IMG/VR virus record: IMGVR_UViG_3300035520_001860
Span: 32,001-96,000 of that record
DNA from: a virus
Taxonomy: Duplodnaviria > Caudoviricetes
Length of the DNA stretch: 64,000 bases
Strand: one strand, 5' to 3'
The position numbers and the translations under genes are program-made. Below are positions 223 to 16,517 of the stretch, piece after piece. The notes under the pieces are model-generated. The model searched no databases and had not been told where the DNA came from. It was given only the letters and a program-made list of their open reading frames with translations. Numbering within the stretch: position 1 is the stretch's first letter; each line of letters begins with the position of its first letter.

Positions 223-1515
223 ATGGCAAATACAAAACGAAGAGAAAACTTTACAGACAAGAGCGGAAACATGCTAATACCTACTAACGTTGAGGGAGGA
301 TACTACAATGAGAATTTCATAACAGCACCTAAACTCATTTTAATGGCTATGATATTAGTAGCTTTAGCCTGGATAATATATAAATGTGTAAATGGTAACA
401 GTAGCTTACTAACATGGGTAATTTGGTTAGCAATGTGGCTTGGTTTATCAAGCTTAATAATGAGATTTTTCGTATTTGAAGAAAAATTTTATTACAGAAT
501 GTATTTGGATTTAAAAGAGAATGAAATAACAACTCCAGCAATATACTGGAATATAGCTTCAATAAAAGACACTGATGATGGAGCTATAATAACATATGCA
601 GATGGAAAGATAGCAATTATTGCAAGAGTTGATAGAGATACAATTACTGGTAAAACAAGAGATTTTAAAGAGACACACTATGATGCAATATCTGATTTTT
701 ACAAAGATGTTATAGTGCAAAAATACTCATTCGTTCAAATGAATGTAATGGAAACAGCAGGAAAAGACCCAAGACTTAATGAACTTTCAAAGTTAACATA
801 TAAAAGTGATAATGCTAACATATGTAAGCTTATGGAACTTGAGATAGGACACATTAAAAATATAACACATACATCATTATATGAGAGTGATTATTTCTTA
901 TTCTATACAAGTGATTTGTCTAAGATGGACTCAATAATAAATGATATTACAGAATCATTGTTTAAACTGCTTGATGGAGCATATGTAGGATATAGCTTCT
1001 TAACAAGTAAAGAAATAGTTGAATTACTAAAAGATTATTCTGGTGTAACATATTTCAATTATACTGAAGCATCATTACTTATGTATAATAACAATAAAAA
1101 TTCAGCAGTTCCTCCATTTACTGTAAAGGGCATTTTGTGGGATGATGGAGAAGATCAAACTTTGAATCCAATGGAAGTAAATAAACTCAGAAATATAACT
1201 AGTAATGTAATTAAAGAGACATTAAGTGTTAAAGATATGTCTATTAAAGATACTATATATAGAAAGGAAACAAAAAATAAAGTTGGTATTGATTTTAATT
1301 CATTATCTAAAACAACAGTCAATACTAATAAACCTGCTAGTAACAATATTAGACGACCAAGTCTTAATATGGGTATGAACAGAAATGCAATGAAGCAACA
1401 GCATACTAATAAGGTCAACTTACAAAAAGAAGAAAATAATGACATATTAGATGATGACTTTGAAGTTAATGAAGTAACAAATACAGCAGATGATGAAGAA
1501 TACATTGATATATAA
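223..1515 (+). CDS. Membrane protein with two N-terminal TM helices and a cytoplasmic domain; probable conjugation component (PrgI/VirB3-like position upstream of VirB4)
   Basis: 430 aa ORF with RBS; hydrophobic segments at about aa 38-55 and 62-85; lies upstream of a VirB4-like ATPase. Function inferred from context. Confidence 0.5.
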   Translation: MANTKRRENFTDKSGNMLIPTNVEGGYYNENFITAPKLILMAMILVALAWIIYKCVNGNSSLLTWVIWLAMWLGLSSLIMRFFVFEEKFYYRMYLDLKENEITTPAIYWNIASIKDTDDGAIITYADGKIAIIARVDRDTITGKTRDFKETHYDAISDFYKDVIVQKYSFVQMNVMETAGKDPRLNELSKLTYKSDNANICKLMELEIGHIKNITHTSLYESDYFLFYTSDLSKMDSIINDITESLFKLLDGAYVGYSFLTSKEIVELLKDYSGVTYFNYTEASLLMYNNNKNSAVPPFTVKGILWDDGEDQTLNPMEVNKLRNITSNVIKETLSVKDMSIKDTIYRKETKNKVGIDFNSLSKTTVNTNKPASNNIRRPSLNMGMNRNAMKQQHTNKVNLQKEENNDILDDDFEVNEVTNTADDEEYIDI

Positions 1516-1533
1516 AGAAAGGAAAAGTAAAAC

Positions 1534-4350
1534 ATGAGAGTATTACTATCTGGTGGAAAAAAGACACAAAATATAATTGATGGAATCAGTAAAAGATTTA
1601 CAACTAGCGGAGATGAATTTCTTGTAATCGAGTATTTGGAGGATATAATAGGTATATTCAGTCGTGGTGATTACTTCGATAAGGCTGTAATTACTGAGCA
1701 GAGTATTACAAGAGATGGTGCTATAACAGATGAAATGCAGCTTAGAAGCAGAGTAAATGAATTTGCGTCTAATATGGCAAGTAGATCACATAAGTACAAT
1801 TATGTATTCCTAGCACAAACAGAAGAAATAGCAAATATAATTTATGAGGAGTCACTTCCTATTTCTGATGAAAGTGCAGTAGTATACAAGAAACCTAGAT
1901 ACAATGTAACATTCTTTGTTGATTTAATTGTCACAGAAGCAAAAGACTTACCATCTGATTGGGTTTATGTACCAGAGTTAAGCATACCAGAATCAGAAAT
2001 GTTTAATATAGGCAAGGAGAGTGAAAGTACTAATACAGAGGATGTAATAGATACATCAGATATGAATATTGGCATGGAATTACAGGATATGCCAACAGAT
2101 GATTTATTTAGTGGTGATTGGAATAATATTGATGGTTCAAACAATGATAATGGTCTGAACTTTGATCTAGGTGACATAGGACAGGAAAATAGCTTCAATC
2201 TCGATGAAGAAGGTGGTGGATTTACCATTGATGAAAATGGTAATCTCATTGAAGATTCAGATGATAGTACACAAGGTTTTGGAAATCAGTATGGTGGAGG
2301 ATTTGATGATACAGATACTGATGGAGTAGAACTTAGTGAGAATGATCTAATACCAGACAATAGTGATGGTACAGGCTTTTATAATAATGGTAACTTTGGA
2401 GAATCTGACTTCACATCAGATGAAAATGACAGCTCTAGCTTTGATATTAATGGAGACACTGGATTCAGTAATGAAGGTGATTTTAATACAGAGTTAGGGA
2501 ATGATAATTTTGGATTAGATAGCAATAATGGTTTTGATGACTTCAATAACAATAATTACTCTAACAGCTTTGAAAATGATGAAATCATTGATACAGATAA
2601 TACAGAAGCTATAAAACAATCTGGTAGTCTTCCTGACTATAGAGAACCAGTAGATAACACCTTTGAAACATCAGAAAATGATAGTTTAATGGGTGGAATT
2701 GGTTTAGCAGCTGGAGCAATGACAGGTGCAGCAATGAATAATACATCCGACATATTTGGTCAAGAAGGACAATTAGATGAGGAACAATATAATTACGATG
2801 AGACTGATGGGGGTAATCAGATGAACAATGATGGCTTTAGTAATAATCAGTATGGAAATGGTATGAACAACGGATTTGATAATGATGGTTATGCTAACGA
2901 TGATTATGCTAATGATGATTTTACAAACAACAACGGTTTTGGTGATGAGGGATTCAGTAACAACAGCTTTGATGACGATATGGGATACAATGATGGGTTT
3001 AGTGATCCTACACAAGGCAGCAATGTGAGTGTTAACATTGGAAAGAATACCAATAACCTTGATGATTCAATGTATGGAAATAGTGATGCTGGCTTTGACA
3101 ATTCCATGTATACTAACAATGACATGTATCAGAACAATGAGCAGTATGATACAGCAGGATATGGTGGGGTTGATTACGGTAACGAACAGGATAATTACCA
3201 AAACAACATTGAGAATAACATGTATGGAAATCCGACAGGATTTGAACAGTCAATGTACGACGATGCAGCGGCTATGGCTGCAGGAGCTGCTATTGATGCT
3301 GCAATGCAACAGAATAATCAGCTGCCTAACCAGACAATGCAAGTTTCTCCTAAGAAAGGTTTAAAAGGAATCTTTGGTAAGAAGAAAGGTACTGCTCAAT
3401 ATCAGAATGCAGCAAGTCAGTTAAATGCACCTCAACCAGTTCAAGGTTGGCAGCAGGAAGTTCAGACACAGCAGGTAAATACTGGTAGACACAGAGGTGT
3501 TGATATAAATACAATTAAACAACAGTTGAAACCATTTGCTTCTAGAGGTAACAGCATTGTTGTTACTGGTTGTGGTGGATGTGGAACAAGTACAATAGCA
3601 TATAACTTAGCTAATATAGTACATCAGCTTGGATATTCTGTACTGTTAGTAGATATGGATACAGAGGGAAGAACACAAAGTTACATATCTAAAACAAACT
3701 ATGACAGTATGGAGCCAGATGGAGCAAACTTAATGTCAGCTGTAAACAGTAGTACTGGTACAAGTGCTCAAGAAGCTATTGTAAAACAGGGATTCCATTT
3801 ATTAACGATGGGTCTTGGAACTGATACAGCACAGGTTAATGAGTTACTACATAAGGAAAAAATTAGTAGATTTGCTAACCTTGTTAAGTCATCTCATGAC
3901 TTTGTAATTTATGACATTCCATTTAAGAGTGCAACAGATTACTTATCAGAGATTACCTATACAGCAGATAACTTAGTACTTGTAGCTGATGCTAGTAACT
4001 GGGGAATAACAAAGTTAATGCTTAACGTATGTAATATAAGTGCTGATGATATGCAGGATACAATATTCAACAGAGCACAGCTTGTATTTAACAAATACAG
4101 AAACTTAACAAAAGTATTTGGTAGAAAAGTAAGAACTGGTATTGATATCACGAAGATCATTGATATGAAAGTTCAAGAACTCATTGGTGAGGACCCTGGC
4201 TTCCATTTTGAGGATTTACATATAGCTGGAATACTGAATGATGACCCAGATTTTGAGCAGTCTTGGTTTGAAATGGTTCAGTACTCTGATACTCAAAAAG
4301 GACAGGCAATATTCTTAGAATTACTTGAGCATATAGTACTTAAAAAATAA
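1534..4350 (+). CDS. ParA/MinD/CpaE(TadZ)-like protein: N-terminal receiver-like domain, long acidic low-complexity linker, C-terminal P-loop domain with degenerate Walker A
   Basis: IVVTGCGGCGTSTIAYNLA, VLLVDMD and DFVIYDIP motifs of the MinD/ParA family; both lysines of KGGxGKT are absent; about 500 aa of D/N/G/F/Q-rich linker. Confidence 0.75.
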   Translation: MRVLLSGGKKTQNIIDGISKRFTTSGDEFLVIEYLEDIIGIFSRGDYFDKAVITEQSITRDGAITDEMQLRSRVNEFASNMASRSHKYNYVFLAQTEEIANIIYEESLPISDESAVVYKKPRYNVTFFVDLIVTEAKDLPSDWVYVPELSIPESEMFNIGKESESTNTEDVIDTSDMNIGMELQDMPTDDLFSGDWNNIDGSNNDNGLNFDLGDIGQENSFNLDEEGGGFTIDENGNLIEDSDDSTQGFGNQYGGGFDDTDTDGVELSENDLIPDNSDGTGFYNNGNFGESDFTSDENDSSSFDINGDTGFSNEGDFNTELGNDNFGLDSNNGFDDFNNNNYSNSFENDEIIDTDNTEAIKQSGSLPDYREPVDNTFETSENDSLMGGIGLAAGAMTGAAMNNTSDIFGQEGQLDEEQYNYDETDGGNQMNNDGFSNNQYGNGMNNGFDNDGYANDDYANDDFTNNNGFGDEGFSNNSFDDDMGYNDGFSDPTQGSNVSVNIGKNTNNLDDSMYGNSDAGFDNSMYTNNDMYQNNEQYDTAGYGGVDYGNEQDNYQNNIENNMYGNPTGFEQSMYDDAAAMAAGAAIDAAMQQNNQLPNQTMQVSPKKGLKGIFGKKKGTAQYQNAASQLNAPQPVQGWQQEVQTQQVNTGRHRGVDINTIKQQLKPFASRGNSIVVTGCGGCGTSTIAYNLANIVHQLGYSVLLVDMDTEGRTQSYISKTNYDSMEPDGANLMSAVNSSTGTSAQEAIVKQGFHLLTMGLGTDTAQVNELLHKEKISRFANLVKSSHDFVIYDIPFKSATDYLSEITYTADNLVLVADASNWGITKLMLNVCNISADDMQDTIFNRAQLVFNKYRNLTKVFGRKVRTGIDITKIIDMKVQELIGEDPGFHFEDLHIAGILNDDPDFEQSWFEMVQYSDTQKGQAIFLELLEHIVLKK

Positions 4351-4374: not shown

Positions 4375-5817
4375 ATGACAAAGTACTTACTAAACGATAC
4401 ATTTCATGGATATGAAAAACTCGATGTAAAGGATATAAGTAAGGCAGAGGAAGCAGGCAACTTATTTGTAATAATTATAGACAAGACCTGTGATGACTCT
4501 TTATCTGATTATTATATGCTTGTTAATTCAGCATTAAAGCATCAGAACAGAGTTATAGCAATATCTGTAATGGACGAAAATAGATTATTTAGATCATTAG
4601 CAGCACTTATGGTAACATATAATGATTATGACATCTACGAAGTAGCAGAAAAAGAAGCTATATCAGCAGAATACTTACTAAAATTAGAAAACAGAACGCC
4701 TGATTATAGTGAAGTTCAAACCTATATAGGTGGTGATGTGACAGCTTATTCAGATATGAATATGATTTTGTTTGGTATTCAAAGCTTAGCAGAAGAAGGA
4801 AATCCAGAAGCATTAAAGTCATTCCTTGAAGATCATATGTTAAGCATAGATAATTTAACAACATCACTTAACATGATGAAGAAAACATGCGATCTGTTTA
4901 ATTCTAATGAATTGGTTGGAGAAATAAACAATCTCAAGGAACATGAGAAGAGGCTGAATAAAAACTTAGCAGATAAGGAAACAGCATTAGCTGAAGCTAA
5001 ACATGACAGAGATGAAAATAAAGTAGCAGCTGATACTCTTAAAAGAGAGAATGAGAAGTTAAAAGAGAAAAATAAAGAGTTGCAGGATAACGGTGGAGGT
5101 TCTGGTGATGCAACAATAAGGTCATTTAGAACAGTAAATACTTCAATGTTAGCAGGTAATAGAGCTAAGATTGTTCTTTACTTTAAGGAAGTATCTTATG
5201 TAAGATATACAAATACACTCGTAAGTATTATATTTGAGCAGATAAAGTTAATGAAGTTAAAAACTAAACTATTAATATATGATACTGGCTCAGAGATGTA
5301 CAACATATACAAACCATTGAGAGTTGTGACTGGTTCTGATTATTTTTCTGAAAAGACAAGCTTAATTAAAAAAGTAGAGAAATTTGTTGTTGCTGAACCT
5401 GTACAAACTATTATAGAGGATATATTAAAGTCAGATGAGCAATTTGATGTAGTCATTATATATGACAGAATGCATACTAATCTTGATGTGGTTGCTGGTA
5501 ACTTAGTTACTAAGTTCTTCGTAATTAATTCAAGAGACGATTATGATCGTCTAAAAGATCAGTTAAAAATAAATGATACATCATACATTATCACAAATGC
5601 AGAGAGTTCCATAAATATGGGCGGAAAGAATAATGAGTGGGGACCTATAGGAGATAGAAATTTCATAGATATACCTACTATTCCAGAGTTTAAGAAAAAA
5701 GAATTAAACTCTAGCTCATTTGCAATTTCAAGGTATAAAAGACAGGCTGGAACATTAACACAAAAGCCTATCATTGATACTATAATTGAAAAAAGTAAAA
5801 TAAATACATTAAAATAA
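4375..5817 (+). CDS. Coiled-coil protein with a C-terminal alpha/beta domain, possibly an inactive ParA-like fold
   Basis: GGAGG RBS; heptad-rich region at about aa 178-240; KLLIYD and FDVVIIYD strands resemble the ParA core but there is no Walker A. Confidence 0.5.
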   Translation: MTKYLLNDTFHGYEKLDVKDISKAEEAGNLFVIIIDKTCDDSLSDYYMLVNSALKHQNRVIAISVMDENRLFRSLAALMVTYNDYDIYEVAEKEAISAEYLLKLENRTPDYSEVQTYIGGDVTAYSDMNMILFGIQSLAEEGNPEALKSFLEDHMLSIDNLTTSLNMMKKTCDLFNSNELVGEINNLKEHEKRLNKNLADKETALAEAKHDRDENKVAADTLKRENEKLKEKNKELQDNGGGSGDATIRSFRTVNTSMLAGNRAKIVLYFKEVSYVRYTNTLVSIIFEQIKLMKLKTKLLIYDTGSEMYNIYKPLRVVTGSDYFSEKTSLIKKVEKFVVAEPVQTIIEDILKSDEQFDVVIIYDRMHTNLDVVAGNLVTKFFVINSRDDYDRLKDQLKINDTSYIITNAESSINMGGKNNEWGPIGDRNFIDIPTIPEFKKKELNSSSFAISRYKRQAGTLTQKPIIDTIIEKSKINTLK

Positions 5818-5827: not shown

Positions 5828-8026
5828 ATGTTTAATAAGAAAAACAAGCAGAATAATCAAAGTAAAACACCTAATAATGTAAATCAGCAACAACAATTGC
5901 AACAAGCACAACAGCAAGGAAATCTTACACAAGAACAGAAAATGTTCTTAGAGCAATATGAAAATAATAATAGTAGCAAAAATAAGAGAACGTCCAAAAG
6001 AAAAGAAAAAGTGGACATGTATGACATGATTGTAGCTAACTTTCTTGCTGGAAATGCTATAATAGAACCTACGCAAAAGTTAAATAATAGTCAGATAGCA
6101 ATTGGGTTTAGTAATATTTCATCTGAAACACAGATTACTAAATATTACATGATAAATAGATTTCCAGACTGGCTGCAGCCAAGACTTGTTGATAACATTA
6201 GAGCAAGATGTATGAACCCTGGAGTGAAGATAAACTTTTATTTTCATTGTCAGCCACACAGAATAAACTGGGACTCACCTGAAATGAGAAACAGAATGAA
6301 TGTTTGGAGAGACTTTAGTAAAGAACACTCTGGATCAATAGATGTTTTTGATTATAGGGCACAGCATAGTGATTCACAGTTAAGAAACAGAATGATAAAC
6401 TCAACAAAATATCTTAATGAAGCAGAACTTGAATATAAGAGAAGCTTTATGAAAGTATATTTTATTATAACAATTTCTGCAAAACGTGATGAAAATAGCT
6501 TGGCAAACATGTCAGATTCAATTAGTTCACTGAAGAATCTATGTAGTCAGTCTGATATTAAGCTAACAGAACTTAGGGTAAACATGATCGATTGGTTAAG
6601 GGCAATATCGCCATTCTCATTGAACCCTCTTAAAGAAGTTGAAAGCAAATTAGCTAAAAGAGTATTTACTGATGATTTGTTAGCTAACTTTAATAGTTAT
6701 AAACAAGGACGTGTTGGTAATGAAGGTGTATGTCTTGGAATAGATATACTATCACAGACTCCAGTAATGAGAAAATTTAAGAAAGACCCTGATGCAGCTG
6801 ATAACTGGTTAATAAGTGCTGGTACAGGTGGTGGTAAGTCTTTCTGGGTTAAATCATTATTGACATATCTATTAGCAGATGGATTTGTATGTTGTGTAAT
6901 GGACTACGAAGGTGATGAATATACAAACCTAGCAAACTTTATTAGAGCAGGAAATCCAGATGATGTTAAAATAGTTTCTATGGGTAAGGGCAGTAATGTT
7001 TACTTTGACCCTTGTGAAATACCAGATTTAACTGGGGACCCACAAGTAGATGATGACCTTAAGGAAAGTGCTACAAGCTTTATAATGTCAATATTCAGAC
7101 TTATAGTTAGAGGTATGGATGAACCTTTTTCAAAAGAAGAGGAACGTGTAATGTCTCTAGCAATATCTAGAATGTATGATACAGCAGGTGTTACAGAAGA
7201 TAAGAAAACATGGCACAGAAGTAAAGGATTAAGACTACACGACATATATCGTGAAATAAGAGAAATAGTAGATAGCAAAGAGTTAGTTGATAATGATGCA
7301 GATAATCTTAAACACAAAGCAGCCGTTTCTATCATGGATTCATCAAGTATTTATTTTGAGCCTGGTGAGACAAAATCAGAAGTGTTTAAACAGCCTATGA
7401 GTGCTAATGAGTTATATAAAGGTAAGTTTATTGTATTCTCATTTGGTATGAAAGGTGCAGTAGCATCTGCAACAGACCCAGTAATACTTGGACTAAAGCA
7501 ATTATCTGTTGCATACGTTAATATTCAGATATCTAACTATTGCAAATATGTTCGACATTGCTTTAATGTGAAGGTCTGGGAAGAATTTCAAAGGTACGGT
7601 GAAGTTAAGGGTAGTGCCGAGACTATTGCAAACAGCATAACAGGCGGTCGTAAACGAGGCGACGTTAACTTCATTATAACAAATGACTTAGCAGCAATGC
7701 TTGATGATGAAAATACATTAAGTAAAAAGCTTAGACAAAATATACAAAATTTTGCAATAGGAAAGATACCTGATGCATCTACACGAGCAGAGTTTTGTAA
7801 GAAATTTGACCAGCAAGAAATAGCATTGGCACTTGATAATATTGCTAAAGCACATGCAGCTCAGCAATCTGGAGCACAGAAAGTATCAGGTTCACAAAGT
7901 AGATACAAAAATGCATTCTGTGTAGCACTGGAGGATGGAAAGAAGGCAACTGTAAAAGTAAGGCTTCCTTCGGCACTTATGAAATCTTCACTATTCAAAA
8001 CTGGTGTAGACGTAAAAGATGAATAA
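5828..8026 (+). CDS. VirB4/TraC-like type IV secretion ATPase
   Basis: Walker A SAGTGGGKS, VMDYEGDEY, Walker B VKVWEEFQ, and GGRKRGDVNFIITND matching the VirB4 RK.G....TQ motif; 732 aa. Confidence 0.8.
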   Translation: MFNKKNKQNNQSKTPNNVNQQQQLQQAQQQGNLTQEQKMFLEQYENNNSSKNKRTSKRKEKVDMYDMIVANFLAGNAIIEPTQKLNNSQIAIGFSNISSETQITKYYMINRFPDWLQPRLVDNIRARCMNPGVKINFYFHCQPHRINWDSPEMRNRMNVWRDFSKEHSGSIDVFDYRAQHSDSQLRNRMINSTKYLNEAELEYKRSFMKVYFIITISAKRDENSLANMSDSISSLKNLCSQSDIKLTELRVNMIDWLRAISPFSLNPLKEVESKLAKRVFTDDLLANFNSYKQGRVGNEGVCLGIDILSQTPVMRKFKKDPDAADNWLISAGTGGGKSFWVKSLLTYLLADGFVCCVMDYEGDEYTNLANFIRAGNPDDVKIVSMGKGSNVYFDPCEIPDLTGDPQVDDDLKESATSFIMSIFRLIVRGMDEPFSKEEERVMSLAISRMYDTAGVTEDKKTWHRSKGLRLHDIYREIREIVDSKELVDNDADNLKHKAAVSIMDSSSIYFEPGETKSEVFKQPMSANELYKGKFIVFSFGMKGAVASATDPVILGLKQLSVAYVNIQISNYCKYVRHCFNVKVWEEFQRYGEVKGSAETIANSITGGRKRGDVNFIITNDLAAMLDDENTLSKKLRQNIQNFAIGKIPDASTRAEFCKKFDQQEIALALDNIAKAHAAQQSGAQKVSGSQSRYKNAFCVALEDGKKATVKVRLPSALMKSSLFKTGVDVKDE

Positions 8027-8040
8027 AACACATATAGCAG

Positions 8041-8070
8041 AAAGGGTACATCATTAAAATGTATCCTTTT
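8041..8070 (+). terminator. Rho-independent terminator
   Basis: AAAGGGTACAT-loop-ATGTATCCTTTT stem followed by a T-rich run. Confidence 0.65.
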
Positions 8071-8229: not shown

Positions 8230-8385
8230 ATGTACTTTTTACTGTTTATAGTAGCTTTTATAGTTATATATGTAGCATCATTTAAAGATAACTTCACACA
8301 GGAAAATATTGAGAAAGTAGCTCCTGTTTTCGTGTTATTAGTATTTGCAACTTTAGTAATTATAGTACTAAAATGCATAGTGTAG
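8230..8385 (+). CDS. Small 51-aa two-TM membrane protein (not in the ORF track)
   Basis: AAGGAG RBS at 8216-8221, ATG at 8230; MYFLLFIVAFIVIYVASFKDNFTQENIEKVAPVFVLLVFATLVIIVLKCIV*; stop abuts the RBS of the next gene. Confidence 0.7.
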   Translation: MYFLLFIVAFIVIYVASFKDNFTQENIEKVAPVFVLLVFATLVIIVLKCIV

Positions 8386-10784: not shown

Positions 10785-12767
10785 ATGGGAGCACCTAGTA
10801 TTCCAAAGGAAAACATTACAGGTTTAGTTGTAAAGGGATGGATAGTAGATAGGTATGACACAAAAGGTAAATGGGTATGCAAGTGTGAAAAGTGTGGAAA
10901 AGAAGAAATATTCAGAGCATATCATTTAAAAGAAGCACGAGTTAAAATTTGTAATCATTCAAATAATAAGGCTACACATACATTTAAAGATGATTTGACA
11001 GGAAGAACCTTTGGTGAACTAAAAGTAATAGGATTTGATATAGTGAATGGTGTGTGGAAGTGTAAATGTTCATGTGGAAAAGAAGTATACCATACTACAT
11101 ATCAATTAGTAACAAGGGGTGTGAAAACATGTGGACACAGCAGTGGTGTACTAAAAGACCTTAGAGGAAAGAAATTTGGAGAATTAATACCAATTGAATA
11201 CCTAGGTGATAGAACCTGGAAATGTGAGTGTTCTTGTGGAAAAATTACAAACGTTAGAACAACTGACCTTGTGAGTGGAAACACACAATCATGTGGTCAT
11301 CTTAAAACCGGAGCACCTGTAATAGACTTAACAAATCAGCAATTTGGAAACTGGACAGCTTTAAAATATGTTGGAAACAGCTATTGGCAATGTAAGTGTA
11401 CCTGTGGTAATATAGAAAATGTTCATTCATATACATTAAGAAATGGAACATCAACAAGGTGTTCATCACCATTGCATAGAGTAACAGATATAAAAGGAAG
11501 ACAATTTGGTGAGCTACATGTTGAAGAATATACAGGCAATGGATTCTGGAAATGTAAGTGTTCCTGTGGTAAAACAAAAAACATACTTGGAGTCAACTTA
11601 AGAAATGGAAGTACTAGATCATGTGGATGTATGACAGACAAATTATTAAGACAAACATTATTTAGTAGATACAATGAGATATGTCCATCAAGAGTAGATA
11701 ATGCAAGAAGCACACAACAGATAGAAATTTTACATACAAAAGAATTGTTTAATGCACTCCTAGTAGAATACACAATAAGTTATGGAAAACCAGATGCATA
11801 TGCATTAGCAGATATATTAGGCGTTAGTAGATATACAATAGTCAACATGGCTAATAAGTATGATTTACTAGATAAAATAAAAATATACTATAATAGTAGT
11901 AAAGGAGAAAACCAGGTAGCAAACTTTGTAAGAAACATATACAACGGAGAAGTAATACAAAACACTAAGAAAATACTAGATAATGGCAAGGAACTAGATA
12001 TATACATCCCAGATAAACACATCGCAATAGAATTTAATGGAACCTACTGGCATTCCACAATCTACAAAGATAAGTATTATCATCAACAGAAAACATTAGA
12101 TTGTCATAGGCAAGGAATACGATTAATCCATATATTTGAATATGAATGGAATGATGCAGACACACAGCAGAAAATAAAGAATCACTTAGAATTACTATTA
12201 AGTAACAATATACAAACCATTGGAGCACGAAATACAGAAGTAAAAGAAATAGATAAGCAAACAGCAAAAGAGTTTATAGATAAGTACCATCTTCAGAAGT
12301 ATAGTGAGTCATCGGTTAATATAGGATGCTTTTACAACAACGAACTGATTGGAGCATTAACATTAGGTCATCCAAGATTCAACAGTGAGTATCAGTATGA
12401 AATCATAAGATTTTGTTGGAAAGATAGAGTAAAAGTAACAGGTGGCCTAGAGAAATTATTTTCATACTTTATAAAAAATTATCATCCAAAGTCAATAATG
12501 GCATACTCAGATATATCAAAGTTTACTGGCAATTGTTATACAAAGATAGATTTCAAACCAATAAAACAAAATACAATCACAGAACCAAACTACGTATGGG
12601 TTGATATAGAAAGCAACCAAGTACTATCAAGATACCAAACACAAAAGAAGAAGCTAATAGCTAATAATTTAGGTACAGAAGAACAAACAGAAGATGAGAT
12701 AATGGATAATAATGGATTTTTCAAGATATACAACTCAGGTAATATTAAGATGCAATGGGAATACTAA
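10785..12767 (+). CDS. Freestanding homing-endonuclease-like protein, copy 1: five Cys/His Zn-finger repeats, HTH, Vsr/DUF559-like PD-(D/E)xK nuclease, Mom-like GNAT domain
   Basis: Repeats DLTG..FG.....W.C.CSCG...L..G...SCGH; ELDIYIPDKHIAIEFNGTYWH nuclease motif; C-terminal KYHLQ..IGCFYNNELIG..YEIIRFC..SIMAYSD. Confidence 0.8.
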   Translation: MGAPSIPKENITGLVVKGWIVDRYDTKGKWVCKCEKCGKEEIFRAYHLKEARVKICNHSNNKATHTFKDDLTGRTFGELKVIGFDIVNGVWKCKCSCGKEVYHTTYQLVTRGVKTCGHSSGVLKDLRGKKFGELIPIEYLGDRTWKCECSCGKITNVRTTDLVSGNTQSCGHLKTGAPVIDLTNQQFGNWTALKYVGNSYWQCKCTCGNIENVHSYTLRNGTSTRCSSPLHRVTDIKGRQFGELHVEEYTGNGFWKCKCSCGKTKNILGVNLRNGSTRSCGCMTDKLLRQTLFSRYNEICPSRVDNARSTQQIEILHTKELFNALLVEYTISYGKPDAYALADILGVSRYTIVNMANKYDLLDKIKIYYNSSKGENQVANFVRNIYNGEVIQNTKKILDNGKELDIYIPDKHIAIEFNGTYWHSTIYKDKYYHQQKTLDCHRQGIRLIHIFEYEWNDADTQQKIKNHLELLLSNNIQTIGARNTEVKEIDKQTAKEFIDKYHLQKYSESSVNIGCFYNNELIGALTLGHPRFNSEYQYEIIRFCWKDRVKVTGGLEKLFSYFIKNYHPKSIMAYSDISKFTGNCYTKIDFKPIKQNTITEPNYVWVDIESNQVLSRYQTQKKKLIANNLGTEEQTEDEIMDNNGFFKIYNSGNIKMQWEY

Positions 12768-12789
12768 AGGAAAGACAGGTGGATAAGAG

Positions 12790-14235
12790 TTGAAGATTGA
12801 TTTTCTAGGGAATAAATCATCTAATAGCAACATTAGTTTGGGCACTGAATCATTGGACATTTCGGGATTTGACTTTGATGAACTAGATGACAGCAGCCAA
12901 ATTAATATAATAGAAGATGAGACGAACAAGCCTAATAAGCCTAAAAAGACAAAAAGCAGCATAATAAATAAGTTTTCTCTGCTTCAAAATACTCCAGAAA
13001 TACAGTCTGATGAAGTTATAGATTATTCACAAAATACAGTGGATGCAACAGATTTTGATTTTAGCTTTGATGAGACAGATAAAGAGATTCAAGAAAACAT
13101 TATAAATAACGATGAAGAGGCAGCTGAGGCTAATGCACTTATGCAAAAGATCCTAGCTGAGGATACTATATCAGAACAATCAACAAATGAAGATGACATA
13201 GTTGATATGGAATCAGATGATGGGATAGACTTTGATGAAGAACAAAGCTTAGAGGATGAATTTGACGGTATTGAAATAGATACAGATGATACTATTTCAG
13301 AACAATCAACAAATGATAATGACATTGAAATAGATGATTCAGATTTTGATATAGAAGACGATAGTATTGAAAATGAAGATGATGGAATGAGTTCTATAGA
13401 TGATTTAGATTTTGAGGATGATACATCTGATGAAGAAAGTGAATCAGATTATGATCCAATGTCATCAATAGATAATCTTGATCTTGACTTCGAAGATGAA
13501 GATGAATCAGAAGAGACAAATAATGAGACACAAGTACAAGTATCAAACAATACTGAGGATGATGAAGACTCATTCACACTGGAAGATTTGGACAACATAG
13601 AGGAACCCAGTAATAAAACACACAGTACTATTTCACAACAAATTACAAATAGTAATAACAAAAGTAATGAAATTACAATAGATTTAGAAGATGATTCAGA
13701 CCTAGAAAATGAACTGAATGATTTACAGAATGAGCTCATAATACAAGACAGTGCTAATAAGATAGGGACAACACCAACAAGTACTAATATAAATCAAAGT
13801 ACAAAACAACAGAACACTGATAGCAAACTGAAACATGAGATAGAATCAAATAATGAAAAAGTTTTAGAAATGCAACAAAAGATTGCATTAATGGAGCAAG
13901 AGTTGCAGAGGCTTAAAGGTGGTGGGGCGAAAGAAACTGCATCAAATATAGAGAATAATGTTAATATTAATGATGAAGTTGATAAGATTGACGACCTTAT
14001 TAATGGCAATAAGCCTAAAAAAGAAAACGATATTGGAAAATATGATAGATATGCACTAATGTCTACTGAAGCATTGTACAAAGAAGTTAAACAGTACATG
14101 AAAAAGATGGGAGTAAGTAAGAGACCCATTGATCAGTCAGCATTAAATAACAAGTTTGGAGAGACCAATATCAAAAAGTTAATACAAAAAAGCTATTTAA
14201 TAAAAGCAGGTAAAGGAGTAACAACAGGACGATGA
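12790..14235 (+). CDS. Highly acidic disordered protein with a coiled coil and a small basic C-terminal (possible winged-helix) domain
   Basis: TTG start; D/E-rich at about aa 70-315; internal duplication DTISEQSTN at about 13162 and 13288; ATGA overlap with the next gene. Confidence 0.7.
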   Translation: MKIDFLGNKSSNSNISLGTESLDISGFDFDELDDSSQINIIEDETNKPNKPKKTKSSIINKFSLLQNTPEIQSDEVIDYSQNTVDATDFDFSFDETDKEIQENIINNDEEAAEANALMQKILAEDTISEQSTNEDDIVDMESDDGIDFDEEQSLEDEFDGIEIDTDDTISEQSTNDNDIEIDDSDFDIEDDSIENEDDGMSSIDDLDFEDDTSDEESESDYDPMSSIDNLDLDFEDEDESEETNNETQVQVSNNTEDDEDSFTLEDLDNIEEPSNKTHSTISQQITNSNNKSNEITIDLEDDSDLENELNDLQNELIIQDSANKIGTTPTSTNINQSTKQQNTDSKLKHEIESNNEKVLEMQQKIALMEQELQRLKGGGAKETASNIENNVNINDEVDKIDDLINGNKPKKENDIGKYDRYALMSTEALYKEVKQYMKKMGVSKRPIDQSALNNKFGETNIKKLIQKSYLIKAGKGVTTGR

Positions 14236-16517
14236 AAAAGAAGAACATTACAAAAGTAATAGCACTACTAAGTGCATCATCTATGATGTTTACTGGATGT
14301 GGTTCATTTATAAGTGAAGATGTTGCATCATATCCGTTAGCATCATCACTTACATCAGCAGAACTTATTGATTACTATGCAGAGGCATTAGATTATGACT
14401 CTGTTGTAACAAGAAACGTTACTGTGCATGAGACAACATATGTAACAAAAGATATTCAAGGTGAAAAAGCTACAAAACTTGAAGAGTTGTATAAGGCTTG
14501 TGAAGATATATTAGGACAAAGTGAATATGAGCCTACTGAAGATTCATTAAAACTTGTATCTGAGGATACATTCTACTATTTAAAAGGTGTGCTTGACAAT
14601 GAAGTATTATCCAACGGTACTATTAAGAATATAACTGGGGCACTTGGATATTATTTTGTTGATGTTGAATACGATTTAAGTGCAAAAACAGCTGGAACAT
14701 TTACTAATTGGGCACAGTTAGTAGGTTTAAACGGAGCAATTAGTTATAATGCATACTTAGATGAATACTCATTAAACAGTTCATATTCACAAGCAATTTG
14801 TCAGGAAGTAAATGAGTACTTTACTGAAAACAAGGTAAATCAGATATTAACATATGATACAACATCATACGAATTGAATATAGCTGAGGGAGATCCTTCA
14901 ACATACAATGCAACTAATAATACAACATCTACTGTCACTGATACAGAATATGATGATGAAACATCAGGAAGTTCAGGTGGAATTACCATTTTAAATGAGC
15001 CTGGTGACGAAGATGAAACAGATACAGATATTTCAGATATTGAAACAACATCACTTGATGATATAGTAGATGATGATGAAGATACAGTAGCATCTGATGA
15101 TGAAGAGGTTGTAGAAGATGATGAAGATATAATATCTACTGATAATACAACTACAGTAGTTAGTACTGGTGTAGCGGCTACAACAAGCACTGTAATGTCA
15201 ACCTTATCAAGTAGTAGTGGAGCATATACAATAGTAACACCTACTGAAAGAAGAAACTGGTTAGACGTTGGGTTATTAAATAAGTTAGTAGGTTCATCTA
15301 TTGAAAGCAAGGCAACAATGCCAGAACTTTCTCAAGTATATAATATACCTGAAGCAGAAGGTACAATATCAGGATATGGTATTGCAAACTCCGGTTCAAA
15401 CGGATTAAAGATATTTGGATATGACAGAGATAAGTTATCTGGAACAGCAACTTTAAGATATGTGTTTAAAGATGATAGTACAGGTACTGGAGATATATTA
15501 GGAACAAACATTTATGTTACAGAGGAACAGATAACAAACGGTGTTACAGTATCTTCAAGTACACCTTATATAGCAGAGTTCCTTGAGAGTGAATTTGAAC
15601 AGATTGTTGAAAGATCTGACAGAGTTCAAGTTAACTGTGACTTAGCTGGTGCATTATCAAGTGACTTGTATGAAGATATTGGTATTGGGCTACTTATTGG
15701 ATTCAAAGATAAAAATACAAATACAACAAAGTATATGTCAAAAATACGTCAGGTTTTAGGTAGTGATAAATCTAATAATGCTTACTTATTAGAGGTTGAA
15801 ACAACTACAATTGATGGACCAAAGGATATAGATATTTATGGAACATATAAAGAAATTTATTATATTGTAGTTCAGCAGCAGGATACAGAATTTAAGATTA
15901 TTGATATGCTGAGAACATCAAGAACAATGACTCATGAGCCTGACATTGATCCTGATAGCAATATTACAAAGAGATTAATTGCATTGAACCTTGCAGGTGA
16001 AATCAGTGATGATAATAAGACATCAATCAAGAGTTTAATGAGTGCACTGTATACAGCTGGAACAAACAGAATACTGTACGGACCTAAAGATATAGAAGCA
16101 AACGGTGAGACAATAACCATTGAAAAAGGTATGTATGACTGCTTCAGTGATGATACATCAATATTATCAAGTGATGATAAGGAATACATAAACTCTTCTA
16201 TTAGAAGTATATTAACAGGTATACATGGTACTGATACATCAGCATATTACTCTGGAGATGTAGTAGAGTGGATAGGCGGCTATGATAACCAAGCAGAGTT
16301 CGTAACACAAGAAACAGTTACTTACAGTGGATATGATGACTACTACGAAATGACAGTTTACTACTTAGTATCCATTGAGAATGATGAATGGGTAATTGAT
16401 GAAAGAACTGTTATAGATGGTGGACTTGTAGATGGAAGTGGAAATAGTCTTGAAACAGAAGATACAAGCTCAGATGTTTCAACAGAAACAACTGAATCAA
16501 CAGAAGTAACAGAATAA
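14232..16517 (+). CDS. Lipoprotein with probable NTF2-like (VirB8/TcpC-type) domains
   Basis: Lipobox MMFTGC after a basic N-terminus; C-terminal strands YYIVVQQQDTEFKIID and YYLVSIENDEWVIDE typical of NTF2-like folds; last gene of the conjugation-like cluster. Confidence 0.6.
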   Translation: MKKKNITKVIALLSASSMMFTGCGSFISEDVASYPLASSLTSAELIDYYAEALDYDSVVTRNVTVHETTYVTKDIQGEKATKLEELYKACEDILGQSEYEPTEDSLKLVSEDTFYYLKGVLDNEVLSNGTIKNITGALGYYFVDVEYDLSAKTAGTFTNWAQLVGLNGAISYNAYLDEYSLNSSYSQAICQEVNEYFTENKVNQILTYDTTSYELNIAEGDPSTYNATNNTTSTVTDTEYDDETSGSSGGITILNEPGDEDETDTDISDIETTSLDDIVDDDEDTVASDDEEVVEDDEDIISTDNTTTVVSTGVAATTSTVMSTLSSSSGAYTIVTPTERRNWLDVGLLNKLVGSSIESKATMPELSQVYNIPEAEGTISGYGIANSGSNGLKIFGYDRDKLSGTATLRYVFKDDSTGTGDILGTNIYVTEEQITNGVTVSSSTPYIAEFLESEFEQIVERSDRVQVNCDLAGALSSDLYEDIGIGLLIGFKDKNTNTTKYMSKIRQVLGSDKSNNAYLLEVETTTIDGPKDIDIYGTYKEIYYIVVQQQDTEFKIIDMLRTSRTMTHEPDIDPDSNITKRLIALNLAGEISDDNKTSIKSLMSALYTAGTNRILYGPKDIEANGETITIEKGMYDCFSDDTSILSSDDKEYINSSIRSILTGIHGTDTSAYYSGDVVEWIGGYDNQAEFVTQETVTYSGYDDYYEMTVYYLVSIENDEWVIDERTVIDGGLVDGSGNSLETEDTSSDVSTETTESTEVTE

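What the first reader, a model, noticed from the sequence alone, without database searches (positions are those of the whole stretch)
223..16517. Atypical DNA-transfer cluster: VirB4 plus FtsK-type ATPase plus ParA/CpaE-like pseudo-ATPases and acidic scaffolds
Seen: gene order is 2-TM protein, ParA-like, coiled-coil/ParA-like, VirB4, tiny 2-TM protein, FtsK, (nuclease), acidic protein, NTF2-like lipoprotein. Known: pCW3/Tn916-type Gram-positive systems pair VirB4 with an FtsK-like coupling protein and TcpC, but do not typically embed MinD/CpaE-like positioning proteins. No relaxase, VirB6 or wall hydrolase is visible here (they may lie upstream). Inference: a new T4SS subtype with its own localisation module, possibly moving dsDNA.
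Basis: partly seen in the sequence, partly recalled or inferred. Interest (0 to 1): 0.7.

Follow-up and report, generated by a model that had tools for sequence, protein, structure and literature searches.

The report
Gut relative of pXO16 transfer locus
This gene cluster is a distant, gene-for-gene relative of the 'tip' DNA-transfer (conjugation) locus of pXO16, the giant Bacillus thuringiensis plasmid, and sits on a very large plasmid-like element of gut bacteria that a database files as a virus; the machine type is already known but poorly understood.

Summary

The cluster forms two operons, 223-8026 and 8230-16517, bounded by three strong terminator-like hairpins. It is not a new T4SS subtype. 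It is collinear and homologous with the region of pXO16 (B. thuringiensis israelensis, 350 kb) that I take to be its published 'tip' conjugation locus, and with similar loci on 145-215 kb Bacillus plasmids.

- **VirB4 ATPase:** 31% identical to the pXO16 protein. Its profile and AlphaFold model match solved VirB4 first.
- **FtsK-like motor:** membrane-anchored, with intact Walker motifs.
- **ParA-like pair:** the CpaE/ParA-like protein has lost its Walker lysines, and its partner has a ParA-like fold (a lead only) with no P-loop. A degenerate ParA-like gene occupies the same slot on two Bacillus plasmids.
- **Last gene:** a lipoprotein with three NTF2-like domains (TcpC/VirB8-like), found only in the gut clade.

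No relaxase and no virion gene was found in about 740 kb of related records.

The module continues upstream of the window into a giant 7-TM protein.

The scan has reached the same reading on other DNA at least four times.

Verdict: new member of a known, poorly understood kind; moderate interest.

The parts
1..148 (+). 3' end of a giant 1690-aa polytopic membrane protein (contig C1:27076-32148). It has about 7 TM helices: one N-terminal, a central hairpin, and four C-terminal. It is the candidate channel component (VirB6/TcpH-like role, inferred).
   Evidence: ORF and TM scan. Homologous to the 1834-aa pXO16 protein (1.5e-23). The TM layout is conserved in gut relatives, pXO16, B. velezensis and Bacillus sp. 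plasmids. No Pfam or PDB sequence match.
168..196 (+). Terminator-like hairpin (12-bp stem plus T run) between the giant gene and operon 1.
223..1515 (+). 430-aa membrane protein with two TM helices near the N-terminus; conserved member of the module, role unknown.
   Evidence: TM at 38-56 and 62-80. Homologues with the same two TM helices in pXO16 (445 aa, 1.5e-11), B. velezensis and Bacillus sp. plasmids. No Pfam, PHROG or NCBIfam match.
1534..4350 (+). 938-aa CpaE-like pseudo-ATPase. It has a conserved ~130-aa N-domain, a ~525-aa acidic N/D/G-rich linker with FG/GF repeats, and a C-terminal MinD/ParA-type domain whose P-loop has lost its lysines.
   Evidence: AAA_31, CbiA and BcsQ hits at residues 675-857. 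NCBIfam ParA/MinD/CpaE-homologue hits all fall below cut-off. The P-loop reads GCGGCGTST in 5 of 6 relatives, and one relative keeps GKS. Nearest solved structures are CapB, Soj and MinD. The same slot on Bacillus plasmids holds an AAA_31 protein, also degenerate. Linker composition.
4375..5817 (+). 480-aa protein with an N-domain, a coiled coil (~140-255), and a C-terminal half with a ParA/MinD-like fold but no P-loop.
   Evidence: No Walker A. Only coiled-coil hits in the profile search. ESM-Atlas structural neighbours are ParA/BcsQ/CbiA families, TM up to 0.59 (a lead only). Weak hhalign match to the pXO16 412-aa protein in the same position (E 0.002, 192 columns).
5828..8026 (+). 732-aa VirB4-type ATPase with both N- and C-terminal domains and intact Walker A (AGTGGGKS).
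   Evidence: DUF87 and TraG P-loop hits. The family profile hits Thermoanaerobacter VirB4 (4ag5) at 1.4e-17, far ahead of TcpA and HerA. AF2 model pLDDT is 86.6. Foldseek's top hits are TrwK/VirB4 of R388 over 625-680 columns, E 1e-15 to 1e-12. It is 31% identical to the pXO16 protein. Tree.
8040..8070 (+). Terminator-like hairpin right after the VirB4 stop codon; separates the two operons.
8230..8385 (+). 51-aa protein with two TM helices just upstream of the FtsK-like gene (VirB3/TcpD/E-like small membrane subunit, inferred).
   Evidence: Conserved at 40-59% identity with a shared loop motif in L009, L010 and L011. pXO16 and B. velezensis have 52- and 64-aa 2-TM ORFs between the VirB4-like and FtsK-like genes.
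8399..10753 (+). 784-aa membrane-anchored FtsK/SpoIIIE-type motor. It has an N-terminal G/S/N-rich FG-repeat region, two TM helices (181-240), and one ATPase domain with intact Walker A (GKPRSGKS) and Walker B (LVIDE).
   Evidence: FtsK_SpoIIIE 6.3e-15. TM and motifs. Family profile against PDB gives EccC5 2e-27, FtsK motor 8e-27 over ~337 positions, and TcpA 1e-11. 30% identical to pXO16 FtsK. FG repeats.
10785..12767 (+). Free-standing HNH homing endonuclease with a Mom-like domain. It is a selfish insert, not part of the machine, and one of several paralogues on the element.
   Evidence: phrog_3339 1.8e-88 and phrog_559. Paralogues at 17113, 29782 and 42503. A related gene follows FtsK directly in L009 and L011 and lies 1.6 kb after it in L010.
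12790..14235 (+). 481-aa highly acidic protein (pI 4.05, 27% D+E). Only its ~60-130-aa basic C-terminal part is conserved. Role unknown.
   Evidence: No family match.
14232..16517 (+). 761-aa lipoprotein with three NTF2-like domains (~68-220, 340-570, 590-735) and an acidic disordered linker (228-329). It is the TcpC/VirB8-like wall-spanning scaffold candidate.
   Evidence: Lipobox FTGC. AF2 model pLDDT is 73.9, with the domains above 85. Foldseek hits are all NTF2-like, including TcpC of pCW3 (3ub1, E 2e-4) and the VirB8-like OrfG of ICESt3 (7pkw). 87 homologues, all from metagenome contigs of the same kind. None in PLSDB or next to the pXO16 ATPases.
16539..16567 (+). Terminator-like hairpin ending operon 2.
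18836..20467 (+). 543-aa SNF2-family helicase, conserved just downstream of the FtsK-like gene in pXO16 as well. It may be an associated DNA-processing helicase (inferred).
   Evidence: SNF2-rel_dom and Helicase_C. 32% identity over 539 aa to the pXO16 'DEAD/DEAH box helicase' at the collinear position.

Best explanation
The region encodes the membrane and ATPase core of a pXO16 'tip'-type, apparently relaxase-less, Gram-positive type IV secretion (conjugation) machine. It is carried by a giant, co-oriented, plasmid-like element of gut Clostridia; the only taxonomic label comes from contigs binned with a Lachnospiraceae MAG.

Gene layout:
- Operon 1 (223-8026): a 2-TM protein, a CpaE-like pseudo-ATPase with a long acidic FG-repeat linker, a coiled-coil protein with a ParA-like fold and no P-loop, and a VirB4-type ATPase.
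- Operon 2 (8230-16517): a 51-aa 2-TM subunit, a membrane-anchored FtsK/SpoIIIE motor, a selfish homing endonuclease, an acidic protein, and a tri-NTF2 lipoprotein.
- Upstream, outside the window: a 7-TM giant protein and several small membrane proteins complete a ~28-kb module.

Proposed working (inferred, not shown):
- The giant polytopic protein and the small TM proteins form the membrane channel.
- A VirB4 hexamer docks on the channel and powers assembly and translocation.
- The FtsK-like motor receives and pumps the DNA.
- The NTF2 lipoprotein scaffolds the passage through the wall, as proposed for TcpC.
- The two degenerate ParA/CpaE-like proteins cannot hydrolyse ATP like MinD. They act as a positioning or assembly scaffold that gathers the two motors at one site.

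Shown here: homologies, folds, motifs, synteny and distribution. The function is carried over from pXO16 genetics.
For: **Link to pXO16**
- The best PLSDB hits of the VirB4-like protein are ten copies of the 350-kb B. thuringiensis israelensis plasmid pXO16: 31% identity, 91% coverage, 1e-81.
- The neighbours are collinear: giant protein, 2-TM protein, VirB4-like, FtsK-like, SNF2 helicase.
- The FtsK-like protein's strongest plasmid hit (lowest E-value) is also pXO16.
- The pXO16 tip locus (25 kb, 16 CDS, two ATPases and a wall hydrolase) was delimited with experimental data as the conjugation locus. No relaxase or oriT was found for it (PMC9673590).

**VirB4 identity**
- The family profile hits solved VirB4 at 1.4e-17.
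- The AF2 model (pLDDT 86.6) matches full-length TrwK/VirB4 first.
- The same profile picks up the ATPase core of ordinary ~800-aa VirB4 proteins in 120 of 401 Lachnospiraceae-family genomes.

**Other parts**
- The FtsK motor is intact.
- The NTF2 lipoprotein resembles TcpC and OrfG.

**Conservation**
- The order is conserved in five gut relatives.
- The core order (giant protein, 2-TM protein, degenerate ParA-like protein, unknown protein, VirB4-like, FtsK-like with small ORFs between) is kept on B. velezensis and Bacillus sp. plasmids.
- In the tree, the gut clade is sister to the pXO16 clade. The whole family splits from ordinary VirB4 with 100% SH-aLRT support.

**Absences**
- None of six relaxase Pfam families was found in four related records totalling ~740 kb.
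- All 22 PLSDB plasmids carrying this VirB4 are typed non-mobilizable.
- No TerL, portal, HK97 capsid or sheath family was found.
- No virion PHROG was found among 40 ORFs (the cluster genes and the larger remaining ORFs of the contig).
Against: - There is no experimental evidence for this element. The function is carried over from a relative whose signature ATPase is only 31% identical.
- I could not read the primary tip paper. That the matched pXO16 genes are the tip ATPases is inferred from the review's description and from their being the only such genes found in the record.
- No cell-wall hydrolase domain was found in or beside this cluster, though relatives have one.
- The VirB6-like role of the giant protein rests on topology alone.
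- The ParA-like fold of the 480-aa protein is only an Atlas lead with TM below 0.6.
- IMG/VR labels the record a provirus, and it is only ~59% complete. A relaxase or virion genes could lie in the missing part.
Confidence: 0.75

Rival explanations
1. The element is a huge phage, as IMG/VR labels it. On this view the VirB4/FtsK cluster serves the virus, for example in genome packaging or delivery by FtsK/HerA-class ATPases, or in superinfection exclusion, rather than in conjugation.
For: - IMG/VR files G000-G003 as viral.
- The element carries phage-like traits: many homing endonucleases, its own gyrase, a DnaB-like helicase and a clamp loader, and almost all genes on one strand.
- pXO16 itself has been suspected of a 'phage-like nature' (PMC6199540).
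Against: - No TerL (three Pfam families), portal, HK97 capsid or sheath was found in ~740 kb of four records, one of them rated 100% complete.
- No virion PHROG was found among 40 ORFs scanned.
- The VirB4-like protein has only one small, weak hit among 50,697 phage records, and the DNA has none. In contrast, 22 large Bacillus plasmids carry it.
- Other gut megaplasmids have been misfiled as huge phages (Hodors, PMC12934698).
- The pXO16 homologue is tied to conjugation by experiment.
Confidence: 0.1
2. It is a protein-secretion or surface-assembly machine (T7SS-like through an EssC-type ATPase, or Tad-like through a CpaE-type organiser) that exports adhesins or effectors rather than DNA.
For: - The FtsK-like protein scores best against EccC/EssC-type ATPases.
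- CpaE/TadZ-like proteins organise Tad pilus machines.
- Many proteins in the cluster are membrane-bound or exported.
Against: - There is a single ATPase domain, not the two or three of EssC, and the profile aligns over the whole FtsK alpha-beta motor.
- A full-length VirB4 is the T4SS hallmark.
- No Pfam, PHROG or NCBIfam hit to a T7SS or Tad component (EssB, WXG100, CpaF, pilin) appeared among the proteins scanned.
- The homologous pXO16 locus is needed for DNA transfer (PMC9673590).
Confidence: 0.08
3. It is an anti-phage or anti-plasmid defence island built on a HerA/DUF87-type ATPase, an FtsK-type ATPase and a nuclease.
For: - The Pfam hit to DUF87/HerA.
- HerA-type defence complexes appear in the fold search at about 1e-9.
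- A nuclease gene lies inside the cluster.
Against: - VirB4 outranks HerA in both profile and fold searches, and the match covers the VirB4 N-domain.
- The nuclease is a multi-copy homing endonuclease that also sits beside unrelated genes.
- Seven of the cluster's proteins are membrane or wall proteins.
- The locus is collinear with a conjugation locus.
Confidence: 0.03

Closest known systems
tip (transfer of israelensis plasmid) locus of pXO16 / pBTHD789-1, Bacillus thuringiensis sv. israelensis (Makart et al. 2018, as reviewed in PMC9673590 and PMC6199540)
   Same: - Homologous VirB4-like ATPase (31% identity), FtsK/SpoIIIE ATPase (30%), giant ~7-TM protein, ~440-aa 2-TM protein and SNF2 helicase, all in the same order.
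- A tiny 2-TM ORF before the FtsK-like gene.
- No recognisable relaxase.
- The carrier is a very large, low-GC element with nearly all genes on one strand.
   Different: - Very divergent in sequence.
- pXO16's protein in the ParA slot (306 aa) shows no detectable ParA domain.
- pXO16 has a candidate NlpC/P60 hydrolase, and none was found here.
- The tri-NTF2 lipoprotein and the acidic protein have no detectable pXO16 counterpart.
- The habitat is gut anaerobes rather than the B. cereus group.
- A homing endonuclease is inserted here.
Unnamed loci on large Bacillus plasmids (B. velezensis 215 kb NZ_CP076292.1; Bacillus sp. PM8313 145 kb NZ_CP083581.1 and B. subtilis relatives)
   Same: - Core order: giant protein, 2-TM protein, ParA-like AAA_31 protein with a degenerate P-loop, unknown protein, VirB4-like, FtsK-like, with small ORFs between the last two.
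- Typed non-mobilizable by MOB-suite.
   Different: - 24-27% identity.
- The FtsK-like protein is longer (1114-1133 aa).
- Explicit C40, glucosaminidase or M23 hydrolases are present.
- No NTF2 lipoprotein homologue.
- None of these loci has been studied experimentally, to my knowledge.
Tcp conjugation system of Clostridium perfringens pCW3 (TcpF VirB4, TcpA FtsK-like coupling protein, TcpC NTF2-like, TcpH VirB6-like, TcpD/E small TM proteins)
   Same: The same kinds of parts: VirB4, a 2-TM FtsK-family motor, a tandem-NTF2 wall protein, a large polytopic protein and small TM proteins. The review likens pXO16 transfer to pCW3 (PMC6199540).
   Different: - Single-sequence searches do not link the ATPases to it; only profiles do, TcpA at 1e-11, and TcpC appears only by fold.
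- No relaxase of any of the six families tested was found here; to my knowledge pCW3 encodes its own atypical relaxase (from memory, not checked).
- pCW3 has no ParA/CpaE-like pair and no giant 1700-aa protein.
CpaE/TadZ and other MinD/ParA-type positioning proteins
   Same: An N-terminal domain followed by a MinD/ParA-type domain, encoded beside a secretion ATPase. Some TadZ proteins are also atypical ATPases (from memory).
   Different: - Both Walker A lysines are lost in most members.
- A ~500-aa acidic FG-repeat linker is inserted.
- The partner ATPase is VirB4, not CpaF.
- No pilin or prepilin-peptidase family appeared among the proteins scanned, though these were not searched for specifically.
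Hodor gut megaplasmids (PMC12934698)
   Same: Giant gut Bacillota elements first filed among huge phages, with a divergent T4SS and no standard relaxase.
   Different: - Hodors have 44-47% GC, against ~32% here.
- They have VirD4, Rep_3 and a MOBH-like relaxase plus helicase.
- PF07514 (MOBH) was not found here. This is a different lineage.

Membership tests
pXO16 tip-type transfer locus | VirB4-like ATPase belonging to the pXO16 clade | tested here: met
   31% identity, 91% coverage, 1e-81 to pXO16. In the tree, the gut clade is sister (98% support) to the clade holding pXO16, and the family splits from ordinary VirB4 with 100% SH-aLRT support.
pXO16 tip-type transfer locus | Second ATPase of FtsK/SpoIIIE type close downstream | tested here: met
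   30% identity to pXO16 FtsK, which is its strongest PLSDB hit by E-value. Walker A and B are intact.
pXO16 tip-type transfer locus | Collinear accessory genes (giant polytopic protein, 2-TM protein, small 2-TM ORF, SNF2 helicase) | tested here: met
pXO16 tip-type transfer locus | Cell-wall hydrolase (TipB) within the locus | tested here: inconclusive
   No hydrolase family appeared in the cluster proteins or the upstream ORFs scanned. Relatives have NlpC/P60, C40, glucosaminidase or M23. It could be hidden in the giant protein or in the 997-aa protein.
pXO16 tip-type transfer locus | No recognisable relaxase on the element | tested here: met
   PF03432, PF02486, PF01076, PF03389, PF08751 and PF07514 were all absent from G000-G003, ~740 kb. 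Three of the four records are incomplete.
pXO16 tip-type transfer locus | Locus required for conjugative transfer | not testable with these tools
   This needs a cultured host and mating assays.
Canonical Gram-positive conjugative T4SS (pCW3 Tcp, Tn916/ICESt3 type) | VirB4 ATPase | tested here: met
   Profile hit to 4ag5 at 1.4e-17. Fold match to TrwK/VirB4. A single-sequence search retrieves only 311 representatives among 1.84 billion, far fewer than canonical VirB4 would add, so it is a far outlier.
Canonical Gram-positive conjugative T4SS (pCW3 Tcp, Tn916/ICESt3 type) | Relaxase and oriT | tested here: not met
   None of six relaxase families was found. oriT was not searched.
Canonical Gram-positive conjugative T4SS (pCW3 Tcp, Tn916/ICESt3 type) | VirB8/TcpC-like NTF2 protein | tested here: met
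   The tri-NTF2 lipoprotein hits TcpC (3ub1) at 2e-4 and OrfG (7pkw). The match is by fold only, and NTF2 folds are common.
Canonical Gram-positive conjugative T4SS (pCW3 Tcp, Tn916/ICESt3 type) | VirB6/TcpH-like polytopic channel protein | tested here: inconclusive
   A giant 7-TM protein lies directly upstream, but it has no sequence match to anything solved and was too long to fold.
Tailed phage (as filed in IMG/VR) | Terminase large subunit, portal, major capsid, tail sheath | tested here: not met
   PF03237 matched only the FtsK P-loop, below cut-off. PF03354, PF17289, PF04860, PF05065 and PF04984 were absent in G000-G003. No virion PHROG was found. Very divergent virion genes cannot be excluded.
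MinD/ParA/CpaE ATPases | Deviant Walker A KGGxGK[ST] with both lysines | tested here: not met
   GCGGCGTST in 5 of 6 gut sequences, GGPASGKS in one, and GQEGSGATT or SAPNAGGSG in the Bacillus plasmids. The domain is homologous but is most likely not a working ATPase of this class.
Actinomycete TraB-type dsDNA transfer | A single FtsK-like translocase is enough; no VirB4 or T4SS channel | tested here: not met
   A VirB4 and many membrane partners are present and conserved.

The most novel reading that the evidence does not exclude
The two degenerate ParA/CpaE-like proteins, together with the FG-repeat disordered regions on the CpaE-like protein and on the FtsK-like motor, may form a scaffold or condensate that gathers the VirB4 and FtsK motors at one membrane site. 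This scaffold would replace a sequence-specific relaxosome. If so, tip-type machines could load any DNA without a dedicated relaxase and oriT. That would explain why pXO16 mobilises oriT-less plasmids and chromosomal DNA. It would also make the 250-630 kb gut elements general gene-transfer engines of Lachnospiraceae.
Probability: 0.15. Interest if true: 0.85.

Novelty: new member of a known kind. Interest (0 to 1): 0.5.

Why it matters
pXO16 has long been treated as nearly unique. It transfers very efficiently, mobilises plasmids that lack oriT and mob, moves chromosomal segments of up to 791 kb, and has no known relaxase (PMC9673590).

This cluster, together with the sister findings of this scan, shows that the same machine type is the conserved transfer module of a family of giant elements in animal and human gut metagenomes. 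Homologues sit on contigs of up to ~630 kb, and these elements are filed as viruses.

Three consequences follow:
- It gives a much larger comparative set for finding the missing DNA-processing step.
- It points to conserved parts that deserve testing: the pseudo-ParA pair, the giant 7-TM protein, and in the gut clade the tri-NTF2 lipoprotein.
- It cautions against counting these records as huge phages.

Tried and rejected
The 450-630 kb contigs holding homologues could not be inspected, so their completeness and circularity are unknown.
- **The primary tip paper is not held**. Gene-by-gene tip names could not be matched.
- **ESM Atlas gave nothing for the lipoprotein**.
- **Profile searches that found nothing:** the N-domain of the CpaE-like protein against PDB, so a 'receiver-like' fold is untested; and the giant protein against PDB.
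- **hhalign comparisons that found nothing:** the 938-aa protein against the pXO16 306-aa protein; the two ParA-like proteins against each other; the lipoprotein against pXO16 neighbours.
- **Hodor megaplasmids rejected as the same lineage.** Their GC is 44-47%, and they have a MOBH-like relaxase and VirD4.
- **pELF linear plasmids noted as another minimal VirB4/FtsK system.** They were not hit by tblastn of the VirB4-like protein.
- **Promoter scan uninformative:** fewer promoter-like sites than in shuffled sequence.
- **One call failed on a parameter rule**.
- **Not run:** the metagenome-contig scan, CONJscan, and a VirB4 tree including all MPF classes. No reference sequences for these were at hand.

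Full report
**1. What is there**

The window has ~32% GC, positive GC skew throughout, and essentially all long ORFs on the + strand. It is bases 32001-96000 of a 133.6-kb IMG/VR record labelled 'provirus', which CheckV rates ~59% complete.

- **223-1515 (430 aa):** two N-terminal TM helices.
- **1534-4350 (938 aa):** residues 675-857 match ParA/MinD-type families (AAA_31 4e-08, BcsQ, CbiA). NCBIfam ParA, MinD and CpaE-homologue models hit, all below cut-off. The nearest solved proteins are CapB, Soj and MinD.
- **4375-5817 (480 aa):** a coiled coil and no P-loop.
- **5828-8026 (732 aa):** a DUF87/TraG-P-loop ATPase.
- **8230-8385 (51 aa):** a 2-TM ORF.
- **8399-10753 (784 aa):** a FtsK/SpoIIIE protein with two TM helices.
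- **10785-12767:** an HNH homing endonuclease (phrog_3339, 1.8e-88).
- **12790-14235 (481 aa):** pI 4.05, 27% Asp+Glu.
- **14232-16517 (761 aa):** a lipoprotein with an FTGC lipobox.

Three 12-bp-stem terminator-like hairpins on the + strand lie in the gaps at 168-196, 8040-8070 and 16539-16567. The total number of such hairpins is no higher than in shuffled sequence. What counts is that each sits in an intergenic gap, within about 20 bases after the preceding stop codon.

**2. Is it more than chance?**

Yes. Five independent relatives keep the same genes in the same order, at 33-84% protein identity. They are three long IMG/VR records of 88, 250 and 268 kb, one 26-kb record, and a contig binned with a Lachnospiraceae MAG from water-deer caecum.

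The tiny 2-TM ORF is conserved at 40-59% identity with a shared loop motif.

The VirB4-like protein has 417 close relatives in the 5.8-billion-protein set, on contigs of up to 600 kb. The lipoprotein has 87, on contigs of up to 627 kb. Several of these contigs cluster near 520-560 kb, which suggests complete elements of that size.

**3. Identity of the parts**

*VirB4.* A single-sequence search of the PDB finds nothing. Only 311 representatives out of 1.84 billion match by phmmer, so this is a small and very divergent family.

A 55-sequence profile hits the VirB4 of Thermoanaerobacter (4ag5) at 1.4e-17. That is far ahead of TcpA (2e-4) and HerA (9e-3). The same profile picks up the ATPase core of ordinary ~800-aa VirB4 proteins in 120 of 401 genomes of the MAG's family. 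A full-length match occurs only in the MAG itself.

The AlphaFold model (pLDDT 86.6) matches full-length TrwK/VirB4 of R388 over 625-680 columns at E 1e-15 to 1e-12. It matches the Thermoanaerobacter C-domain at TM 0.75. HerA follows at 1e-10 and TrwB at 1e-8. Walker A is intact, and the invariant columns include the Walker A Gly-Lys and a conserved acidic Glu-Glu pair followed by an Arg (E585, E586, R589), which I take to stand in for Walker B.

*FtsK-like motor.* It has one ATPase domain with intact Walker A and B. A 7-sequence profile matches EccC5 (2e-27), the FtsK alpha-beta motor over ~337 positions (8e-27), and TcpA of pCW3 (1e-11). Its cytoplasmic N-terminus is G/S/N-rich, with 10 FG/GF dipeptides in 180 residues.

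*ParA-like pair.* In the 938-aa protein the P-loop reads GCGGCGTST in five of six gut sequences, so both lysines of KGGxGK[ST] are gone. One lineage keeps GKS. Between the conserved N-domain and the ParA-like domain lies a ~525-aa variable linker rich in Asn, Asp and Gly, with 17 FG/GF.

The C-terminal half of the 480-aa protein has ParA/BcsQ/CbiA families as its structural neighbours in the ESM Atlas, with TM up to 0.59. This is a lead, not proof. The sequence profile sees only the coiled coil.

*Lipoprotein.* The AF2 model (pLDDT 73.9, domains above 85) shows three helix-plus-curved-sheet domains and a disordered acidic linker. All Foldseek hits are NTF2-like. They include TcpC of pCW3 (3ub1, 2e-4) and the VirB8-like OrfG of ICESt3.

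**4. Surroundings**

The module continues upstream of the window. Contig positions 20345-32148 encode four small proteins with 2-3 TM helices, a 997-aa protein, and a 1690-aa protein with ~7 TM helices that ends at window base 148. The whole block is ~28 kb.

Downstream lie a second homing endonuclease and then an SNF2-family helicase. Further on are a gyrase, a DnaB-like helicase, a ParB-HNH protein and others. A clamp-loader subunit lies upstream.

**5. Comparison with what is known**

In PLSDB the VirB4-like protein hits only 22 plasmids: 21 Bacillus and 1 Paenibacillus. All are typed non-mobilizable. The top ten hits listed are copies of the 350-kb B. thuringiensis israelensis plasmid, that is pXO16 (31% identity, 91% coverage, 1e-81).

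The pXO16 region is collinear:
- the giant protein (1834 aa, 1.5e-23);
- the 2-TM protein (445 aa, 1.5e-11);
- the VirB4-like protein;
- small TM ORFs, including a 52-aa 2-TM one;
- FtsK/SpoIIIE (30%);
- the SNF2/DEAD helicase (32% over 539 aa).

The review literature describes a 25-kb, 16-CDS 'tip' locus of pXO16. It was delimited with experimental data and contains two ATPases and a wall hydrolase (TipB). No relaxase or oriT has been identified, and it was called a novel type of T4SS (PMC9673590). pXO16 mobilises oriT-less plasmids and chromosomal DNA. [quoted passage not shown] Its co-oriented genes have suggested a phage-like nature (PMC6199540).

That the matched genes are the tip ATPases is my inference, because the primary paper is not held. 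They are the only VirB4-like and FtsK-like places in the record.

B. velezensis (215 kb) and Bacillus sp. PM8313 (145 kb) plasmids show the same core order. They add explicit hydrolases (C40 peptidase, glucosaminidase, M23). They also carry an 'AAA family ATPase' two genes upstream of the VirB4-like gene. That protein is an AAA_31/CbiA ParA-like protein, homologous to the window's (3.5e-6), and its P-loop is also degenerate. So a degenerate ParA-like protein in this slot recurs on both Bacillus plasmids examined in detail. In pXO16 the slot holds a 306-aa protein with no detectable ParA domain. Its N-terminus aligns weakly with the N-domain of the 938-aa protein. The next pXO16 gene (412 aa) aligns weakly with the 480-aa protein (E 0.002).

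A quick maximum-likelihood tree puts the gut sequences in one clade. That clade is sister (98% support) to the clade that holds pXO16. The whole family is split from four ordinary Lachnospiraceae VirB4 proteins with 100% SH-aLRT support. The tree carries long-branch warnings and has no references for other MPF classes.

The NTF2 lipoprotein has no homologue in PLSDB or beside the pXO16 ATPases. As far as tested, it belongs to the gut clade only.

**6. Relaxase and virus tests**

Six relaxase Pfam families (MOBP, MOBT, MOBV, MOBQ, MOBF, MOBH) gave no match in the four related records. These total ~740 kb, and one is rated 100% complete.

Three terminase families, portal, HK97 capsid and tail sheath gave no match, apart from a sub-threshold P-loop hit on the FtsK-like gene.

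PHROG scans of 40 ORFs (the cluster genes and the larger remaining ORFs of the contig) found homing endonucleases, a Clp-type ATPase ('ATP-dependent protease' PHROG), a resolvase and FtsK-like families, but no virion protein.

Among 50,697 phage records the VirB4-like protein has one small, weak hit, and the DNA has none.

The 'virus' label is therefore unsupported by what I could test. The recent Hodor paper documents the same misfiling for another lineage of gut megaplasmids. Divergent virion genes, or genes in the missing 40% of this record, cannot be excluded.

**7. Mechanism**

*Shown:*
- a full-length VirB4-type ATPase and an FtsK-type motor, both with intact catalytic motifs;
- a tandem-NTF2 lipoprotein;
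- conserved small and giant membrane proteins;
- one ParA/MinD-type protein that has lost its Walker lysines, next to a partner with no P-loop and a possible ParA-like fold;
- collinearity with what I infer to be the genetically defined pXO16 conjugation locus.

*Inferred:*
- The giant 7-TM protein and the small TM proteins form the channel.
- VirB4 energises the channel.
- The FtsK-like motor acts as coupling protein and DNA pump.
- The lipoprotein bridges membrane and wall, as proposed for TcpC.
- The pseudo-ParA pair, with its long FG-repeat acidic linker, positions or scaffolds the motors.
- The acidic protein and the SNF2 helicase may take part in DNA processing.
- The homing endonuclease is a selfish passenger.

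I put 0.75 on 'tip-type conjugative transfer module'. I put 0.10 on a phage-related role, 0.08 on protein secretion or pilus assembly, and 0.03 on defence.

**8. Novelty**

The kind is known: the pXO16 tip locus, 2018. This is a new, distant member.

What is added here:
- A degenerate ParA-like protein recurs in the same slot in the gut clade and on two Bacillus plasmids.
- The gut clade adds a tri-NTF2 lipoprotein.
- The carriers are giant gut elements filed as viruses.

Earlier reports of this scan on other DNA reached the same reading. I found them only after my own analysis, so they are agreement, not independent evidence. The FG-repeat observation was also made before on another genome and holds here.

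Noticed in passing
window 10785-12767, 17113-18867, 29782-31374, 42503-44395; also contig C1:16327-17361: Paralogous HNH homing endonucleases with a Mom-like domain each sit directly beside a core ATPase gene: after the FtsK-like gene, before the SNF2 helicase, after GyrB, and after the DnaB-like helicase. Relatives carry one after the FtsK-like gene too (directly in L009 and L011, 1.6 kb further on in L010).
   Followed up: partly
window 8399-8940 (FtsK-like residues 1-180) and 1939-3513 (linker of the 938-aa protein): Gly/Ser/Asn-rich disordered regions with regularly spaced Phe-Gly: 10 FG/GF in 180 residues and 17 in 525. They occur on two cytoplasmic proteins of the machine. This may be a shared interaction or condensate-forming feature.
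   Followed up: partly
window 168-196 and 16539-16567: The two terminator-like hairpins that bound the cluster share their stem ends (AAGAGG...CCTCTT). This suggests a recurring terminator family on the element.
   Followed up: no
window 27650-29659, 38606-40858, 40894-42480; contig C1:18695-20119 and 96160-98445: The element encodes its own GyrB, GyrA, DnaB-like helicase, clamp-loader subunit and a Clp-type ATPase matching the 'ATP-dependent protease' PHROG (phrog_4871, 1.8e-204). That is a replisome-level gene set unusual for a plasmid.
   Followed up: no
contig C1:102181-108559 (6-12 kb beyond the window end): A run of six co-oriented genes (1013, 259, 288, 117, 171 and 299 aa), each with an N-terminal signal or TM segment and no family match. 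It may be a surface module, comparable in position to the aggregation genes of pXO16.
   Followed up: no
L007 and L008 (Lachnospiraceae MAG RGIG8543, water-deer caecum): Two different copies of the VirB4-like gene (79% and 65% identical to the window's) lie on separate contigs of one MAG. Either two related giant elements co-occur or the bin is mixed.
   Followed up: no
window 37355-38419; 55505-57772 and 58089-59246: A HipA-like kinase gene (hits below cut-off) and a DUF2201 metallopeptidase/VWA plus AAA_5 (MoxR-like) gene pair lie among the replication genes.
   Followed up: no
window 12790-14235, last ~110 residues: Only the basic, helical C-terminal part of the otherwise very acidic 481-aa protein is conserved among relatives. 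It might be a small DNA- or protein-binding domain.
   Followed up: no
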